Source: Escherichia coli
Lineage (GTDB): Bacteria; Pseudomonadota; Gammaproteobacteria; Enterobacterales; Enterobacteriaceae
NCBI RefSeq assembly: GCF_003334255.1
Contig: NZ_QOWU01000050.1
Reading direction: 5' to 3' (one strand)
Length of the DNA: 42,065 bases
The position numbers and the translations under genes were made by a program. Below are positions 16,369 to 21,752 of the stretch, piece after piece (positions within the stretch are counted from its first letter, which is position 1; each line of letters opens with the position of its first letter). The notes below the pieces were generated by a model that was given only the letters and a program-made list of their open reading frames with translations, had not been told where the DNA came from and did not search any database.

Positions 16369-17052
16369 ATGACGGCAATTGCCCCGGTTATTACCATTGA
16401 TGGCCCAAGCGGTGCAGGGAAAGGCACCTTGTGTAAGGCTATGGCGGAAGCGTTGCAATGGCATCTGCTGGACTCGGGTGCAATTTATCGCGTACTGGCA
16501 CTGGCGGCTTTACATCACCATGTTGATGTTGCATCGGAAGATGCGCTGGTGCCGCTGGCATCCCATCTGGATGTACGTTTTGTGTCGACCAATGGCAATC
16601 TGGAAGTGATCCTCGAAGGGGAAGATGTCAGCGGCGAAATTCGTACTCAGGAAGTGGCGAATGCAGCTTCACAAGTCGCGGCATTCCCACGCGTTCGTGA
16701 AGCATTATTGCGTCGCCAACGCGCGTTTCGCGAATTACCAGGCCTGATTGCCGATGGCCGCGACATGGGAACGGTGGTATTCCCTGATGCGCCAGTGAAA
16801 ATTTTCCTTGACGCCTCCTCGGAAGAACGTGCGCATCGCCGCATGCTACAGTTGCAGGAGAAGGGCTTTAGTGTTAACTTTGAGCGCCTTTTGGCCGAGA
16901 TCAAAGAACGCGACGACCGCGATCGTAACCGAGCGGTAGCGCCACTGGTTCCGGCAGCCGATGCTTTAGTGTTGGATTCCACCACCTTAAGCATTGAGCA
17001 AGTGATTGAAAAAGCGCTACAATACGCGCGCCAGAAATTGGCTCTCGCATAA
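16369..17052 (+). CDS. cmk: cytidylate kinase
   Basis: 227-aa ORF with P-loop GPSGAGKGT; aaggag Shine-Dalgarno. Confidence 0.95.
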
Positions 17053-17162
17053 GCGACCGAATTTGCAGTACCCCCGTTGCAATGGAATGACAGCGGGTAT
17101 GTTAAACAACCCCATCCGGCATGGAGCCAGGTGGACGTTAAATATAAACCTGAAGATTAAAC

Positions 17163-18836
17163 ATGACTGAATCTTTTGCTCAACTCTTTGAAGAGTCCTT
17201 AAAAGAAATCGAAACCCGCCCGGGTTCTATCGTTCGTGGCGTTGTTGTTGCTATCGACAAAGACGTAGTACTGGTTGACGCTGGTCTGAAATCTGAGTCC
17301 GCCATCCCGGCTGAGCAGTTCAAAAACGCCCAGGGCGAGCTGGAAATCCAGGTAGGTGACGAAGTTGACGTTGCTCTGGACGCAGTAGAAGACGGCTTCG
17401 GTGAAACTCTGCTGTCCCGTGAGAAAGCTAAACGTCACGAAGCCTGGATCACGCTGGAAAAAGCTTACGAAGATGCTGAAACTGTTACCGGTGTTATCAA
17501 CGGCAAAGTTAAGGGCGGCTTCACTGTTGAGCTGAACGGTATTCGTGCGTTCCTGCCAGGTTCTCTGGTAGACGTTCGTCCGGTGCGTGACACTCTGCAC
17601 CTGGAAGGCAAAGAGCTTGAATTTAAAGTAATCAAGCTGGATCAGAAGCGCAACAACGTTGTTGTTTCTCGTCGTGCCGTTATCGAATCCGAAAACAGCG
17701 CAGAGCGCGATCAGCTGCTGGAAAACCTGCAGGAAGGCATGGAAGTTAAAGGTATCGTTAAGAACCTCACTGACTACGGTGCATTCGTTGATCTGGGCGG
17801 CGTTGACGGCCTGCTGCACATCACTGACATGGCCTGGAAACGCGTTAAGCATCCGAGCGAAATCGTCAACGTGGGCGACGAAATCACTGTTAAAGTGCTG
17901 AAGTTCGACCGCGAACGTACCCGTGTATCCCTGGGCCTGAAACAGCTGGGCGAAGATCCGTGGGTAGCTATCGCTAAACGTTATCCGGAAGGTACCAAAC
18001 TGACTGGTCGCGTGACCAACCTGACCGACTACGGCTGCTTCGTTGAAATCGAAGAAGGCGTTGAAGGCCTGGTACACGTTTCCGAAATGGATTGGACCAA
18101 CAAAAACATCCACCCGTCCAAAGTTGTTAACGTTGGCGATGTAGTGGAAGTTATGGTTCTGGATATCGACGAAGAACGTCGTCGTATCTCCCTGGGTCTG
18201 AAACAGTGCAAAGCTAACCCGTGGCAGCAGTTCGCGGAAACCCACAACAAGGGCGACCGTGTTGAAGGTAAAATCAAGTCTATCACTGACTTCGGTATCT
18301 TCATCGGCCTGGACGGCGGCATCGACGGCCTGGTTCACCTGTCTGACATCTCCTGGAACGTTGCAGGCGAAGAAGCAGTTCGTGAATACAAAAAAGGCGA
18401 CGAAATCGCTGCAGTTGTTCTGCAGGTTGACGCAGAACGTGAACGTATCTCCCTGGGCGTTAAACAGCTCGCAGAAGATCCGTTCAACAACTGGGTTGCT
18501 CTGAACAAGAAAGGCGCTATCGTAACCGGTAAAGTAACTGCAGTTGACGCTAAAGGCGCAACCGTAGAACTGGCTGACGGCGTTGAAGGTTACCTGCGTG
18601 CTTCTGAAGCATCCCGTGACCGCGTTGAAGACGCTACCCTGGTTCTGAGCGTTGGCGACGAAGTTGAAGCTAAATTCACCGGCGTTGATCGTAAAAACCG
18701 CGCAATCAGCCTGTCTGTTCGTGCGAAAGACGAAGCTGACGAGAAAGATGCAATCGCAACTGTTAACAAACAGGAAGATGCAAACTTCTCCAACAACGCA
18801 ATGGCTGAAGCTTTCAAAGCAGCTAAAGGCGAGTAA
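17163..18836 (+). CDS. rpsA: 30S ribosomal protein S1
   Basis: 557-aa ORF, six tandem S1 (OB-fold) repeats visible as recurring DYGAFV/DFGIFI...GLLHI/GLVH motifs; strongly biased codon usage. Confidence 0.98.
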
Positions 18837-18844
18837 TTCTCTGA

Positions 18845-18876
18845 CTCTTCGGGATTTTTATTCCGAAGTTTGTTGA
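18845..18876 (+). terminator. intrinsic terminator downstream of rpsA
   Basis: cttcgg ... ccgaag stem followed by tttgttgagttt, 10 nt after the rpsA stop. Confidence 0.55.
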
Positions 18877-18882
18877 GTTTAC

Positions 18883-18911
18883 TTGACAGATTGCAGGTTT
18901 CGTCCTGTAAT
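18883..18911 (+). promoter_or_regulatory. sigma70 promoter for ihfB (-35 TTGACA, 17-bp spacer, -10 TGTAAT)
   Basis: Consensus -35 ttgaca at 18883-18888, exactly 17 bp, then tgtaat at 18906-18911, about 85 bp upstream of the ihfB ATG. Confidence 0.65.
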
Positions 18912-18995
18912 CAAGCACTAAGGGCGGCTACGGCCGCCCTTAATCAATGCAGCAACAGCAGCCGCTTAATTTGCCTTTAAGGAACCGGAGGAATC

Positions 18996-19280
18996 ATGAC
19001 CAAGTCAGAATTGATAGAAAGACTTGCCACCCAGCAATCGCACATTCCCGCCAAGACGGTTGAAGATGCAGTAAAAGAGATGCTGGAGCATATGGCCTCG
19101 ACTCTTGCGCAGGGCGAGCGTATTGAAATCCGCGGTTTCGGCAGTTTCTCTTTGCACTACCGCGCACCACGTACCGGACGTAATCCGAAGACTGGCGATA
19201 AAGTAGAACTGGAAGGAAAATACGTTCCTCACTTTAAACCTGGTAAAGAACTGCGCGATCGCGCCAATATTTACGGTTAA
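18996..19280 (+). CDS. ihfB: integration host factor subunit beta
   Basis: 94-aa ORF ([34 protein letters not shown]...), HU/IHF family; ggagg Shine-Dalgarno. Confidence 0.97.
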
Positions 19281-19306
19281 GTTTTTTACTCAAACTTGAA
19301 CGAGAG

Positions 19307-19330
19307 AAAAGCACCTGTCGGGTGCTTTTT
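19307..19330 (+). terminator. intrinsic terminator downstream of ihfB
   Basis: aagcacc-tgtc-gggtgctt hairpin followed by tttttt. Confidence 0.7.
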
Positions 19331-19487
19331 TCATTTCTCTAATCTGGAACTGGAAGCTGCCTCGCAGAGTTTTGAACAGTTTTCACCCTTTCGTTAAATT
19401 CTTCTGAATATGCCTCGGGGAACGCAAAATTCCCACCAGACAACCGCTCAACAAAGTTGCACACTTTCCATAAACAGGGAGGGGTGC

Positions 19488-21752
19488 ATGAAAATAACGA
19501 CAGTCGGTGTATGCATAATTAGCGGAATTTTTCCGTTGCTGATTTTGCCCCAATTGCCTGGGACATTAACCCTTGCGTTTCTGACTCTCTTCGCCTGCGT
19601 ACTGGCATTTATCCCTGTTAAAACCGTCCGTTATATCGCGCTGACGTTGCTGTTTTTCGTTTGGGGCATATTATCAGCAAAGCAAATTTTGTGGGCAGGA
19701 GAAACCTTAACTGGCGCGACGCAGGATGCAATTGTTGAGATCACTGCAACTGACGGCATGACCACTCATTACGGTCAAATTACTCATCTACAAGGTCGAC
19801 GTATATTCCCTGCGTCAGGTCTCGTGATGTATGGCGAATATCTTCCGCAAGCGGTTTGTGCTGGACAACAATGGTCAATGAAACTCAAAGTTCGTGCAGT
19901 TCATGGCCAACTTAATGATGGCGGCTTTGATAGCCAGCGTTATGCCATTGCCCAGCATCAGCCGCTCACCGGCCGTTTTCTGCAGGCAAGTGTCATTGAA
20001 CCGAATTGTAGCCTGCGTGCACAGTATCTGGCGTCACTACAAACAACGCTGCAACCCTATCCGTGGAATGCGGTTATTCTTGGTTTAGGTATGGGGGAAC
20101 GGTTATCCGTCCCCAAAGAAATCAAAAATATCATGCGCGATACTGGAACGGCGCATTTAATGGCGATATCGGGATTGCACATCGCTTTTGCGGCGTTGCT
20201 GGCTGCCGGACTCATTCGCAGTGGACAAATTTTTCTGCCTGGGCGCTGGATCCACTGGCAAATACCATTAATTGGCGGAATCTGCTGTGCTGCTTTTTAT
20301 GCCTGGTTGACGGGAATGCAACCTCCTGCATTGCGTACCATGGTGGCGCTTGCTACGTGGGGAATGCTTAAGTTAAGTGGGCGACAGTGGAGTGGCTGGG
20401 ATGTATGGATATGTTGTCTGGCGGCAATTTTGCTGATGGATCCTGTTGCCATTCTCTCGCAAAGTTTATGGCTCTCTGCCGCTGCGGTCGCGGCATTGAT
20501 ATTTTGGTATCAGTGGTTTCCCTGTCCTGAGTGGCAACTGCCGCCGGTATTGCGTGCAGTTGTTTCCCTCATCCATCTGCAACTGGGAATCACACTTCTG
20601 CTTATGCCCGTGCAAATCGTCATATTTCATGGCATTAGTCTGACCTCGTTTATTGCAAATCTATTAGCAATTCCCTTGGTGACATTTATCACGGTTCCGT
20701 TGATCCTCGCCGCGATGGTTGTGCATTTAAGCGGGCCGTTAATCCTGGAGCAAGGGTTATGGTTTCTTGCCGACCGGTCTTTGGCTTTACTTTTCTGGGG
20801 GTTAAAGAGTTTGCCGGAAGGGTGGATCAACATTGCTGAATGTTGGCAATGGCTATCATTTTCCCCATGGTTCTTACTGGTGGTATGGCGATTAAACGCC
20901 TGGCGAACGTTGCCAGCAATGTGTGTGGCTGGAGGCTTGCTGATGTGCTGGCCGCTGTGGCAAAAACCTCGACCTGACGAGTGGCAGCTGTACATGCTTG
21001 ATGTCGGGCAAGGGCTGGCAATGGTGATAGCCAGAAACGGCAAAGCGATTCTCTATGACACAGGACTGGCCTGGCCTGAAGGGGATAGTGGGCAACAACT
21101 GATTATCCCCTGGCTCCACTGGCATAATCTTGAACCGGAAGGCGTTATTCTGAGCCATGAACATCTGGATCACCGGGGAGGGCTGGATTCAATATTGCAT
21201 ATATGGCCGATGTTATGGATCAGAAGTCCGTTAAACTGGGAACATCATCAGCCCTGTGTGCGTGGCGAAGCGTGGCAATGGCAAGGATTGCGTTTCAGCG
21301 CGCACTGGCCTTTACAAGGTAGCAACGATAAAGGAAATAACCATTCCTGTGTGGTTAAGGTTGATGACGGGACGAATAGCATTCTTCTAACCGGTGATAT
21401 TGAAGCCCCAGCTGAACAAAAGATGCTAAGCCGTTACTGGCAGCAAGTGCAGGCAACATTGCTTCAGGTACCTCACCATGGCAGTAATACCTCATCATCG
21501 TTGCCATTAATTCAGCGAGTGAATGGAAAAGTGGCACTCGCATCGGCATCGCGCTATAACGCATGGCGACTGCCCTCTAACAAAGTTAAGCATCGCTATC
21601 AACTGCAAGGATATCAATGGATTGATACTCCACATCAAGGTCAAACAACGGTCAATTTTTCAGCGCAAGGCTGGCGGATTAGCAGCCTCAGGGAGCAAAT
21701 TTTACCTCGTTGGTATCATCAGTGGTTTGGCGTGCCAGTGGATAACGGGTAG
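19488..21752 (+). CDS. ycaI: ComEC/Rec2-family inner-membrane DNA-uptake channel homologue
   Basis: 754-aa polytopic membrane protein starting MKITTVGVCIISGIF with a C-terminal metallo-beta-lactamase-like domain (SHEHLDHRGG); gggagggg Shine-Dalgarno. The upstream in-frame ATG at 19410 is rejected. Confidence 0.85.
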   Translation: MKITTVGVCIISGIFPLLILPQLPGTLTLAFLTLFACVLAFIPVKTVRYIALTLLFFVWGILSAKQILWAGETLTGATQDAIVEITATDGMTTHYGQITHLQGRRIFPASGLVMYGEYLPQAVCAGQQWSMKLKVRAVHGQLNDGGFDSQRYAIAQHQPLTGRFLQASVIEPNCSLRAQYLASLQTTLQPYPWNAVILGLGMGERLSVPKEIKNIMRDTGTAHLMAISGLHIAFAALLAAGLIRSGQIFLPGRWIHWQIPLIGGICCAAFYAWLTGMQPPALRTMVALATWGMLKLSGRQWSGWDVWICCLAAILLMDPVAILSQSLWLSAAAVAALIFWYQWFPCPEWQLPPVLRAVVSLIHLQLGITLLLMPVQIVIFHGISLTSFIANLLAIPLVTFITVPLILAAMVVHLSGPLILEQGLWFLADRSLALLFWGLKSLPEGWINIAECWQWLSFSPWFLLVVWRLNAWRTLPAMCVAGGLLMCWPLWQKPRPDEWQLYMLDVGQGLAMVIARNGKAILYDTGLAWPEGDSGQQLIIPWLHWHNLEPEGVILSHEHLDHRGGLDSILHIWPMLWIRSPLNWEHHQPCVRGEAWQWQGLRFSAHWPLQGSNDKGNNHSCVVKVDDGTNSILLTGDIEAPAEQKMLSRYWQQVQATLLQVPHHGSNTSSSLPLIQRVNGKVALASASRYNAWRLPSNKVKHRYQLQGYQWIDTPHQGQTTVNFSAQGWRISSLREQILPRWYHQWFGVPVDNG

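What the first reader, a model, noticed from the sequence alone, without database searches (positions are those of the whole stretch)
18883..18941. Near-consensus ihfB promoter followed immediately by a 9-bp GC-rich hairpin at the predicted 5' end of the mRNA
TTGACA-17 bp-TGTAAT is a near-perfect sigma70 promoter. A perfect hairpin aagggcggc-tacg-gccgccctt (18920-18941) begins within a few nucleotides of the predicted transcription start. A stable 5'-terminal stem-loop is a classic mRNA-stabilising element (protection from 5'-end-dependent RNase E attack) and could also serve as a protein binding site.
Basis: seen in the sequence. Interest (0 to 1): 0.35.

Follow-up and report, generated by a model that had tools for sequence, protein, structure and literature searches.

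The report
Shared hairpin between rpsA and ihfB
The E. coli ihfB promoter starts transcription on the first base of a strong RNA hairpin that also ends the upstream rpsA (ribosomal protein S1) mRNA, so one old terminator-type stem-loop caps the 3' end of one message and the 5' end of the next; the parts are known kinds and the promoter is already catalogued.

Summary
The window is E. coli cmk-rpsA-ihfB-ycaI. TTGACA (18883-88), a 17-nt spacer and TGTAAT (18906-11) are followed by a perfect 9-bp hairpin with a UACG loop (18920-41; 10 bp with T18919/A18942; about -19 to -21 kcal/mol).

Three published 5'-end maps place the ihfB start at 18919 or 18920, so the transcript has no unpaired 5' nucleotide. 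This is the catalogued sigma38/sigma70 promoter ihfBp.

Term-seq and full-length SMRT-Cappable-seq put the 3' end of rpsA transcripts at 18945, four nt past the stem. About 60-70% end there and the rest read through into ihfB.

In 76 gamma-proteobacterial rpsA-ihfB spacers the hairpin is nearly universal and covaries. It carries a T-tract in Vibrio and Aeromonas, and it predates the promoter, which occurs only in Enterobacteriaceae at fixed spacing.

Best reading: a leaky, U-tract-poor rpsA terminator or 3'-end stem-loop, reused as a flush 5' stem-loop on ihfB mRNA. That should block RppH/RNase E 5'-end-dependent decay. Stabilisation is inferred, with only indirect support from a Salmonella UTR-swap experiment. 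Modest interest: a new member of known kinds.

The parts
17163..18836 (+). rpsA (ribosomal protein S1) coding sequence. Its transcripts end at the hairpin described below.
   Evidence: ORF list; RefSeq annotation.
18847..18868 (+). First terminator-like hairpin after the rpsA stop codon, followed by TTTGTTGAGTTT. No mapped 3' end lies here. It sits just upstream of the -35.
   Evidence: Terminator scan; fold -11 kcal/mol; no Term-seq or SMRT 3' end at the corresponding coordinates; its sequence is not conserved between genera.
18883..18888 (+). -35 hexamer TTGACA of ihfBp.
   Evidence: Sequence; invariant in 12 Enterobacteriaceae genera; RpoS-holoenzyme SELEX peak at window 18879; ihfBp was one of two of 169 sigma38 promoters with a detectable -35.
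18906..18911 (+). -10 hexamer TGTAAT, preceded by C at 18905. It lacks the A at -11. The alternative register TAATCA (18908-13) fits the mapped start better but needs a 19-nt spacer.
   Evidence: Sequence; CCTGTAATC is conserved in Enterobacteriaceae; not called by the consensus scan.
18919..18920 (+). Transcription start of monocistronic ihfB mRNA.
   Evidence: Cappable-seq U00096.2 962,975 = window 18920; Kim 2012 962,974 = 18919; SMRT-Cappable-seq NC_000913.3 963,751 = 18919; coordinate offsets.
18920..18941 (+). GC-rich hairpin: 9-bp stem with a UACG tetraloop, 10 bp with 18919/18942. It is the 5'-terminal stem-loop of ihfB mRNA and the 3'-terminal stem-loop of rpsA mRNA.
   Evidence: Folds; covariation; presence in 68-70 of 76 rpsA-ihfB spacers.
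18945..18945 (+). Major RNA 3' end of rpsA transcripts, 4 nt after the stem.
   Evidence: Term-seq 963,777: read counts 9925 and 5221 in two growth conditions, Rho score 1.34 (not significant), intrinsic-terminator score 14.4. SMRT-Cappable-seq transcripts 961,720-to-963,777 and 961,861-to-963,777.
18967..18967 (+). Second triphosphorylated 5' end, seen in Cappable-seq only and unexplained.
   Evidence: U00096.2 963,022, RRS 111.7, enrichment 7.62.
18987..18991 (+). Shine-Dalgarno sequence GGAGG of ihfB.
   Evidence: Sequence; ACCGGAGG is conserved.
18996..19280 (+). ihfB coding sequence (IHF beta subunit).
19304..19332 (+). ihfB intrinsic terminator: hairpin plus T-tract.
   Evidence: Scan; fold; Term-seq 964,165 and SMRT 964,164.

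Best explanation
The hairpin at 18920-18941 is an RNA element shared by two co-directional transcripts.

Role 1 (shown): rpsA transcripts end just after it, at 18945. About 60-70% stop there and the rest continue into ihfB. It therefore behaves as a leaky, Rho-independent, U-tract-poor terminator and/or 3'-exonuclease barrier for rpsA mRNA.

Role 2 (start shown, effect inferred): in Enterobacteriaceae the sigma38/sigma70 promoter ihfBp (TTGACA-17-TGTAAT) lies immediately upstream. RNA polymerase starts on the first base of the stem, at 18919/18920, so monocistronic ihfB mRNA begins with a flush stem-loop of about -20 kcal/mol and no unpaired 5' nucleotide. This should prevent RppH from converting the 5' triphosphate and should prevent 5'-end sensing by RNase E, which would slow 5'-end-dependent decay of ihfB mRNA.

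History (inferred from comparison): the hairpin is the ancestral rpsA terminator. It still carries a T-tract in Vibrio and Aeromonas, lost it in Enterobacterales, and was later reused as a 5' cap structure when the promoter arose upstream of it.
For: Transcription start at the stem base:
- Cappable-seq 962,975 (U00096.2) = window 18920, RRS 364.9, log2 enrichment 7.64, so the end is triphosphorylated.
- Kim 2012 gives 962,974 = 18919, 71 reads, 77-nt 5' UTR.
- SMRT-Cappable-seq gives 963,751-to-964,164, covering b0912 only.

The rpsA 3' end:
- Term-seq 963,777 = window 18945, with Rho score 1.34 ('No') and intrinsic-terminator score 14.4.
- SMRT-Cappable-seq, from TSS 961,720: 109 reads end at 963,777, 67 pass through and 9 end within 50 bp. 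From TSS 961,861: 38 end there and 15 pass through.

Structure:
- -18.8 to -20.9 kcal/mol, matched by 0 of 200 shuffles. The loop is C(UACG)G.
- Orthologues carry UUCG, GUAA or GAAA loops.

Conservation:
- 68 of 76 rpsA-ihfB spacers have an ungapped hairpin matched by at most 1 of 100 shuffles.
- In 15 alignable hairpins, 90% of cells are paired, 6 of 10 pairs change on both sides, and 0 of 500 shuffles reach the covariation score.
- 7-8 of 8 T follow the stem in Vibrio, Aeromonas and Rosenbergiella, against 1-5 in other Enterobacterales.

The promoter module:
- TTGACA-17-CTGTAATC-8 nt-hairpin has no indel in Escherichia, Salmonella, Enterobacter, Cronobacter, Citrobacter, Kluyvera and others. 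The flanks on both sides are full of indels.
- The promoter is absent in Yersinia, Hafnia, Pantoea, Erwinia, Pectobacterium and others, which keep the hairpin.

Mechanism:
- RppH and RNase E need at least 2 unpaired 5' nucleotides, and a 5' stem-loop blocks RppH (PMC8833179).
- In Salmonella at 7 h, the ihfA coding region with ihfB UTRs had a half-life of 3.38 min, against 2.19 min for native ihfA. The ihfB coding region with ihfA UTRs had 2.64 min, against 4.93 min for native ihfB (PMC8942017).
- Salmonella has the identical promoter-hairpin module (L082).
Against: - No experiment removes or moves this hairpin, so the stabilising effect is inferred.
- The Salmonella swap also exchanges the 3' UTR, the promoter, the chromosomal position and the co-transcription context.
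- ihfB mRNA half-life is ordinary: about 3.5 min in E. coli and 3.5-4.9 min in Salmonella. That is far from the ompA class.
- The U-tract is poor (UUAAUCAA, 3 U of 8). The 3' end lies only 4 nt after the stem (6 nt after the last G-C pair), so it could come from exonucleolytic trimming of longer RNAs rather than from termination.
- The fixed promoter-to-hairpin spacing could reflect separate constraints on the two elements.
- The -10 hexamer is imperfect (no A at -11) and lies 8-9 nt from the start, so the exact register is unsettled.
Confidence: 0.7

Rival explanations
1. The hairpin is only the rpsA terminator or 3'-end stem-loop. Its position at the ihfB start is a by-product of a promoter arising in a short spacer, and it has no meaningful effect on ihfB mRNA stability.
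For: The hairpin predates the promoter and occurs without it in most Enterobacterales and beyond. It marks the rpsA 3' end. ihfB mRNA half-life is ordinary, about 3.5-5 min.
Against: There are no indels between the -10 and the stem across 12 genera, although the 8-nt discriminator varies in sequence and both flanks carry many indels. The ihfB UTRs transfer stability in Salmonella. RppH and RNase E have known requirements for unpaired 5' nucleotides.
Confidence: 0.2
2. The hairpin acts as a promoter-proximal attenuator of ihfBp. A fraction of polymerases that start at 18919/20 terminate at about +26, giving a hairpin RNA of about 27 nt and limiting ihfB expression. The 3' end lies 51 nt upstream of the ORF, as listed by Adams et al.
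For: Term-seq lists 963,777 among 3' ends in 5' UTRs, with intrinsic-terminator score 14.4. ihfBp 5' tags equal those of the main rpsA promoter in short-read Cappable-seq (364.9 against 318.6), but are about 10-fold fewer in long-read SMRT-Cappable-seq (32 against 337).
Against: The long-read method and its size selection disfavour the 414-nt ihfB mRNA, so the ratio difference is not decisive. The long reads show that transcripts ending at 963,777 start at rpsA promoters. No dataset examined here shows a 27-nt RNA. The U-tract is poor.
Confidence: 0.1
3. The inverted repeat works at the DNA level, as a protein-binding site or cruciform, for example in IHF autoregulation of ihfBp.
For: An IHF core-like site, AATCAAGCACTAA (1 mismatch), overlaps the -10 and the start. 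IHF autoregulation of ihfB is reported in the literature, as cited in PMC8942017.
Against: The IHF-like site lies beside the repeat, not in it, and such matches occur about once per kb by chance. The stem sequence changes completely between families while pairing is kept, and the loops are RNA tetraloop classes (UNCG, GNRA). That pattern points to selection on RNA structure.
Confidence: 0.03
4. The 5' end at 18919/20 is a processing site in the rpsA-ihfB co-transcript, not a transcription start.
For: Read-through rpsA-ihfB transcripts exist, and nucleases often cut next to stable stems.
Against: Cappable-seq enrichment of 2^7.6 over the control marks a triphosphorylated end. A conserved -35/-10 sits at the right distance. 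RpoS holoenzyme binds there in vitro. The promoter is catalogued as ihfBp.
Confidence: 0.02

Closest known systems
ihfBp, the ihfB-specific promoter of E. coli (RegulonDB/EcoCyc; Aviv et al. 1994 and Weglenska et al. 1996, as cited in PMC8942017)
   Same: It is the same promoter. It is sigma38-associated, carries an unusual -35, lies downstream of rpsA, and ihfB is also co-transcribed with rpsA.
   Different: Nothing differs for the promoter itself. I found no paper in the searchable library that notes that its start coincides with the base of a hairpin, or that the hairpin is the rpsA 3' end.
5'-terminal stem-loop mRNA stabilisers (ompA hp1, papA; Emory, Bouvet and Belasco 1992, listed in PMC3997798)
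   Same: A stable stem-loop with at most 1 unpaired 5' nucleotide on a primary transcript, which is the geometry that blocks RppH and 5'-end-dependent RNase E attack.
   Different: Stabilisation has not been demonstrated here. ihfB half-life is only about 3.5-5 min. The stem-loop doubles as the 3' end of the upstream gene's mRNA.
Leaky intrinsic terminators or intercistronic attenuators between tandem genes
   Same: A GC-rich hairpin with 3' ends mapped a few nt downstream, insensitive to Rho inhibition, with partial read-through into the next gene. Outgroup orthologues are canonical T-tract terminators.
   Different: The U-tract is degenerate (UUAAUCAA). The 3' end is closer to the stem than usual. 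A promoter fires into the terminator itself, so the downstream transcript starts with the terminator hairpin.
3'-end protective stem-loops, to which transcripts are trimmed back (Dar and Sorek 2018, PMC6061677)
   Same: A stable stem-loop without a U-tract that marks a mature 3' end.
   Different: Rho involvement is not supported here (Rho score 1.34, not significant).

Membership tests
sigma70-family promoter (ihfBp; sigma38/sigma70) | -35 hexamer close to TTGACA | tested here: met
   6/6 at 18883-88; invariant across 12 Enterobacteriaceae genera.
sigma70-family promoter (ihfBp; sigma38/sigma70) | -10 hexamer close to TATAAT, with A at -11 and T at -7, 16-18 nt after the -35 | tested here: inconclusive
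   TGTAAT is 5/6 with a 17-nt spacer but has G in place of the A at -11, and the scan did not call it. It lies 8-9 nt from the mapped start. The alternative register TAATCA has the A at -11 but needs a 19-nt spacer.
sigma70-family promoter (ihfBp; sigma38/sigma70) | Triphosphorylated 5' end mapped at the expected distance | tested here: met
   Published Cappable-seq, TSS-seq and SMRT-Cappable-seq tables give window 18919/18920.
sigma70-family promoter (ihfBp; sigma38/sigma70) | Holoenzyme binding | tested here: met
   RpoS-holoenzyme genomic SELEX peak at window 18879 (PMC5493296). This is literature data, not tested de novo.
5'-terminal stem-loop mRNA stabiliser (ompA/papA type) | Stable stem-loop beginning within 0-1 nt of the 5' end | tested here: met
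   Start at 18919/20, stem at 18919/20-18941/42, -18.8 to -20.9 kcal/mol.
5'-terminal stem-loop mRNA stabiliser (ompA/papA type) | Removing or displacing the stem-loop shortens mRNA half-life | not testable with these tools
   Only indirect evidence: the ihfB UTRs transfer stability in the Salmonella OrfSwap strain.
5'-terminal stem-loop mRNA stabiliser (ompA/papA type) | Protection acts through the RppH/RNase E 5'-end-dependent pathway | not testable with these tools
   Inferred from the enzymes' requirement for at least 2 unpaired nucleotides (PMC8833179).
Intrinsic (Rho-independent) terminator | GC-rich hairpin | tested here: met
   9-10 bp stem with 7 G-C pairs.
Intrinsic (Rho-independent) terminator | U-rich tract of about 7-9 nt directly after the stem | tested here: not met
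   UUAAUCAA, 3 U of 8. Aeromonas and Vibrio orthologues have 7-8 of 8.
Intrinsic (Rho-independent) terminator | RNA 3' ends mapped just downstream, insensitive to Rho inhibition | tested here: met
   3' end at 18945 in Term-seq and SMRT-Cappable-seq; Rho score 1.34, not significant.
Intrinsic (Rho-independent) terminator | Termination by purified RNA polymerase in vitro | not testable with these tools
   No such data found.
Curated RNA families (Rfam 15) | Match at or above a family's gathering score | tested here: not met
   Best overlap was PhrS at 16.8 bits against a gathering score of 37.
REP/BIME-type repeated extragenic palindromes | Many copies per genome | tested here: not met
   The 281-nt query holding the hairpin has a median of 1 place per E. 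coli genome.

The most novel reading that the evidence does not exclude
The promoter-to-hairpin spacing is under selection. In the ancestor of Enterobacteriaceae a promoter was fixed at single-nucleotide register in front of the pre-existing rpsA terminator hairpin. One stem-loop thereby serves as the 3' cap of rpsA mRNA and the 5' cap of ihfB mRNA, and the two mRNAs overlap by exactly one hairpin. Polymerases starting at ihfBp must also pass this terminator at +26. That could make ihfB output sensitive to factors that tune termination, and could release an abundant triphosphorylated hairpin RNA of about 27 nt. 'Hairpin sharing' between tandem genes might be a general, unremarked design.
Probability: 0.25. 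Interest if true: 0.5.

Novelty: new member of a known kind. Interest (0 to 1): 0.3.

Why it matters
IHF is a major nucleoid protein. Its two subunits are made from separate genes embedded in translation-factor operons, and differential mRNA stability has been proposed to set the IhfB:IhfA ratio (PMC8942017). A flush 5' stem-loop on ihfB mRNA is a concrete, testable candidate for that stability determinant.

The locus also shows how a terminator can lose its U-tract and allow read-through to the next gene. Later it can be reused as a 5' protective structure when an internal promoter arises next to it.

It warns annotators as well. The same 3' end was listed as a 'novel TTS' of rpsA in one study and as a '3' end in the ihfB 5' UTR' in another. 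The hairpin-plus-T-run directly after rpsA, which looks like the terminator, has no mapped 3' end.

Tried and rejected
- Rfam scan of 18600-19450 at E-value up to 10: only sub-threshold chance hits.
- Consensus promoter scan: did not call the promoter, because the scan requires A at position 2 of the -10. I therefore counted 11/12 matches myself.
- Searches for the original mapping papers (Aviv 1994; Weglenska 1996) and for Thomason 2015 and Kroger 2012: not held in the library.
- Klebsiella TSS table in Kim 2012: the stored file was cut and held no ihfB entry.
- Dar and Sorek 2018: no supplement held.
- Literature search for a described 'terminator hairpin reused as 5' stem-loop': nothing relevant.
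- REP-like repeat: rejected, single copy.
- RNase III site: rejected on my own knowledge, because a 10-bp stem is too short.
- Upstream ORF starting at ATG 18947: rejected, because the ATG is not conserved in Salmonella.
- IHF site within the hairpin: none. The only near-consensus core lies beside it and is weak evidence.

Full report
**Identity of the region.** The window is Escherichia coli. ORFs at 16369-17052, 17163-18836, 18996-19280 and 19410-21752 are cmk, rpsA, ihfB and ycaI. The 281 nt around the finding match all 5426 complete E. coli genomes at 99% identity or more, under the annotations rpsA and ihfB. In MG1655 (NC_000913.3) ihfB starts at 963,828. A window coordinate therefore equals the NC_000913.3 coordinate minus 944,832. 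It also equals the U00096.2 coordinate minus 944,055; Kim 2012 lists ihfB at 963,051-963,335 in that older version.

**The observation.** TTGACA (18883-88), a 17-nt spacer, TGTAAT (18906-11) and the perfect hairpin AAGGGCGGC-uacg-GCCGCCCUU (18920-41) are all present. T18919 and A18942 add a tenth pair.
- The hairpin folds at -18.8 kcal/mol (22 nt) or -20.9 kcal/mol (27 nt). No shuffle of 200 folded as well. It survives in folds of the whole spacer and of the 5' UTR.
- The promoter is the only match of at least 11/12 to the sigma70 consensus on either strand of the 42-kb window, against 0.49 expected. Perfect hairpins of at least 9 bp occur at six places, against 1.3 expected.
- The -10 has G at its second position, where A at -11 is the most conserved promoter base, so the scan tool did not report it. 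The C just before the hexamer is a feature I know to favour sigma38.

**Where transcription starts.** Three independent published data sets agree.
- Cappable-seq lists a start at U00096.2 962,975 (window 18920) with relative read score 364.9. Its log2 enrichment of 7.64 over the uncapped control marks a triphosphorylated end.
- Kim et al. 2012 list the ihfB start at 962,974 (window 18919), with 71 reads and a 77-nt 5' UTR. The printed upstream sequence ends in ...CCTGTAATCAAGCACT.
- SMRT-Cappable-seq lists a full-length primary transcript 963,751-to-964,164 (window 18919-to-19332) covering only b0912.

The ihfB mRNA therefore begins on the first base of the stem, with no unpaired 5' nucleotide. 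The promoter is the catalogued ihfBp. It is described as sigma38-preferring and is one of only two of 169 sigma38 promoters with a detectable -35. RpoS holoenzyme binds in vitro at window 18879. The start lies 8-9 nt after TGTAAT, which is long. The register TAATCA (18908-13) would give the usual distance and the A at -11, but with a 19-nt spacer. I cannot settle the register.

Term-seq (Adams et al. 2021) lists a 3' end at 963,777 (window 18945), 4 nt after the stem, in two growth conditions (read counts 9925 and 5221). Its Rho score is 1.34, which is not significant. Its intrinsic-terminator score is 14.4, where 3 or more suggests intrinsic termination. The paper's text does not discuss it.

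SMRT-Cappable-seq shows which transcripts end there. From the rpsA start at 961,720, 109 reads end at 963,777, 67 pass through and 9 end within 50 bp. From 961,861, 38 end there and 15 pass through. So about 60-70% of rpsA transcripts end at this hairpin, and the rest continue as rpsA-ihfB co-transcripts, which are also listed. The hairpin-plus-T-run directly after the rpsA stop codon (18847-68) looks like the terminator, but it has no listed 3' end.

**Comparative evidence.** I fetched 80 ihfB loci from gamma-proteobacteria, plus Salmonella, Cronobacter and Enterobacter.
- Of 76 spacers with rpsA upstream, 68 hold an ungapped hairpin that at most 1 of 100 dinucleotide shuffles equals. Most of the remainder have bulged hairpins.
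- The stem sequence differs completely between families: GGGCGGC, GGGTGGC, GAATGAGCAAC, GGATAACAC, GAGGGGGAA and others. Pairing is kept, and the loops are mostly UNCG or GNRA tetraloops.
- In 15 alignable hairpins, 90% of cells pair and 6 of 10 pairs change on both sides. None of 500 shuffles reaches the covariation score, and slid registers fall to 44-59% paired. The alignment and structure derive from these same sequences, which inflates the contrast somewhat.
- After the last G-C pair, Vibrio, Aeromonas and Rosenbergiella have 7-8 T of 8, which makes them canonical terminators. Other Enterobacterales have 1-5, and E. coli has 3.
- Outside Enterobacteriaceae the hairpin starts 0-16 nt after the rpsA stop and there is no TTGACA...TGTAAT.
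- Within Enterobacteriaceae (Escherichia, Salmonella, Enterobacter, Cronobacter, Citrobacter, Kluyvera, Pseudocitrobacter, Pseudescherichia, Superficieibacter and two unnamed lineages) the block TTGACA-17-CTGTAATC-8 nt-hairpin has no indel and the stem is invariant. The 8-nt discriminator varies in sequence, and both flanks are riddled with indels.

The hairpin is therefore older than the promoter. Its position relative to the start has been held constant since the promoter appeared.

**Mechanism.**
- Shown: the start at the stem base, the rpsA 3' end after the stem, partial read-through, and conservation of an RNA-level structure.
- Inferred: the hairpin is a leaky, Rho-independent terminator, or at least a 3'-exonuclease barrier, for rpsA. 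On ihfBp transcripts it acts as a 5' protective structure.

The second inference rests on established enzymology. RppH and RNase E need at least two unpaired 5' nucleotides, and a 5'-terminal stem-loop blocks RppH (PMC8833179; classic ompA and papA work is listed in PMC3997798).

Indirect in vivo support comes from Salmonella, which has the identical module (L082). When the ihfA and ihfB coding regions were exchanged, the message carrying the ihfB UTRs became more stable (3.38 against 2.19 min at 7 h). The ihfB coding region with ihfA UTRs became less stable (2.64 against 4.93 min) (PMC8942017). That experiment does not isolate the 5' hairpin. Absolute half-lives are ordinary, about 3.5 min in E. 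coli, so any effect is moderate.

**Rivals.**
- Terminator only, with an incidental 5' position: cannot be excluded (0.2).
- Promoter-proximal attenuator producing a 27-nt RNA. One oddity hints at this. ihfBp 5' tags equal those of the main rpsA promoter in short-read Cappable-seq (364.9 against 318.6), but are ten-fold fewer in long-read data (32 against 337). Size selection against a 414-nt mRNA explains this equally well (0.1).
- DNA-level or IHF-binding role: disfavoured by the covariation and the tetraloops. The only IHF-like core lies beside the repeat and is a match expected about once per kb.
- Processing rather than initiation: contradicted by the cap enrichment.

**Comparison and novelty.** The promoter is already known. 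The 3' end appears in two supplementary tables under different labels. 5' stem-loop stabilisers and leaky terminators are textbook kinds. No Rfam family matches, and the element is single-copy, so it is not REP-like.

I found no paper in the searchable library that notes that one hairpin is both the rpsA 3' end and the ihfB 5' end, or that it was a terminator first. The key 1990s papers are not held, so I cannot exclude that they remarked on it. I rate it a new member of known kinds, of modest interest. It gives a concrete candidate for the ihfB mRNA stability determinant and a clear case of terminator reuse.

Noticed in passing
window 18967: A second strong triphosphorylated 5' end in Cappable-seq (U00096.2 963,022; RRS 111.7; enrichment 7.62), 29 nt upstream of the ihfB ATG. 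I see no recognisable -10 or -35 upstream. It is absent from the Kim 2012 and SMRT-Cappable-seq lists.
   Followed up: partly
window 18847-18880: The hairpin CTTCGGGAT-tttt-ATTCCGAAG plus TTTGTTGAGTTT directly after the rpsA stop looks like the terminator, but has no mapped 3' end in Term-seq or SMRT-Cappable-seq. Each Enterobacteriaceae genus has a different hairpin at this place, or a short one, as in Pseudescherichia (alignment A2). Its role is unknown; it might be an insulator or an UP-element context for ihfBp.
   Followed up: partly
window 18908-18921 and 18941-18947: The IHF core-like site AATCAAGCACTAA (1 mismatch to WATCAANNNNTTR) overlaps the -10 and the start. TAATCAA is repeated on both sides of the hairpin. 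This fits the reported IHF autoregulation, but such matches occur about once per kb by chance.
   Followed up: partly
L016, L021-L026, L030-L032, L041 (3-8 nt after the hairpin); L034-L039: Outside Enterobacteriaceae, many Enterobacterales share a conserved block CGGTAG(T)T(T/A)AG just after the hairpin. Photobacterium, Grimontia and Salinivibrio have TATACT there, which resembles a sigma38/sigma70 -10. This may be an older ihfB-proximal promoter or a processing site.
   Followed up: no
L003:440-500 (Enterobacter sp. Ag1): This locus lacks TTGACA-17-TGTAAT and instead has TTGTAT-17-TATAAA, ending 4 nt before the same hairpin (with a UUCG loop). The predicted start again falls at or inside the stem base. 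It may be an independent or diverged promoter in the same register.
   Followed up: no
window 18919-18945, compared with rpsA starts at window 16886-17060: The ratio of ihfBp to main rpsA promoter 5' ends is 1.15 in short-read Cappable-seq but 0.095 in long-read SMRT-Cappable-seq. The cause is either size selection, or many ihfBp-derived RNAs being short (terminated at +26) or hairpin-protected 5' decay fragments.
   Followed up: partly
L016, L020-L023, L025, L032 and other Enterobacterales outside Enterobacteriaceae: The hairpin begins 0-16 nt after the rpsA stop codon, within reach of a terminating ribosome. Termination or read-through into ihfB could therefore be coupled to rpsA translation in those species.
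   Followed up: no
window 17199-18338 (- strand): A 379-aa ORF lies antisense to rpsA. It is most likely a by-product of strong codon bias in a highly expressed gene rather than a gene.
   Followed up: no
window 18947-19060: An ATG at 18947, right after the hairpin, opens a short out-of-frame upstream ORF that overlaps the ihfB start. It has no Shine-Dalgarno sequence, and the ATG is lost in Salmonella (A2), so it is probably not functional.
   Followed up: partly
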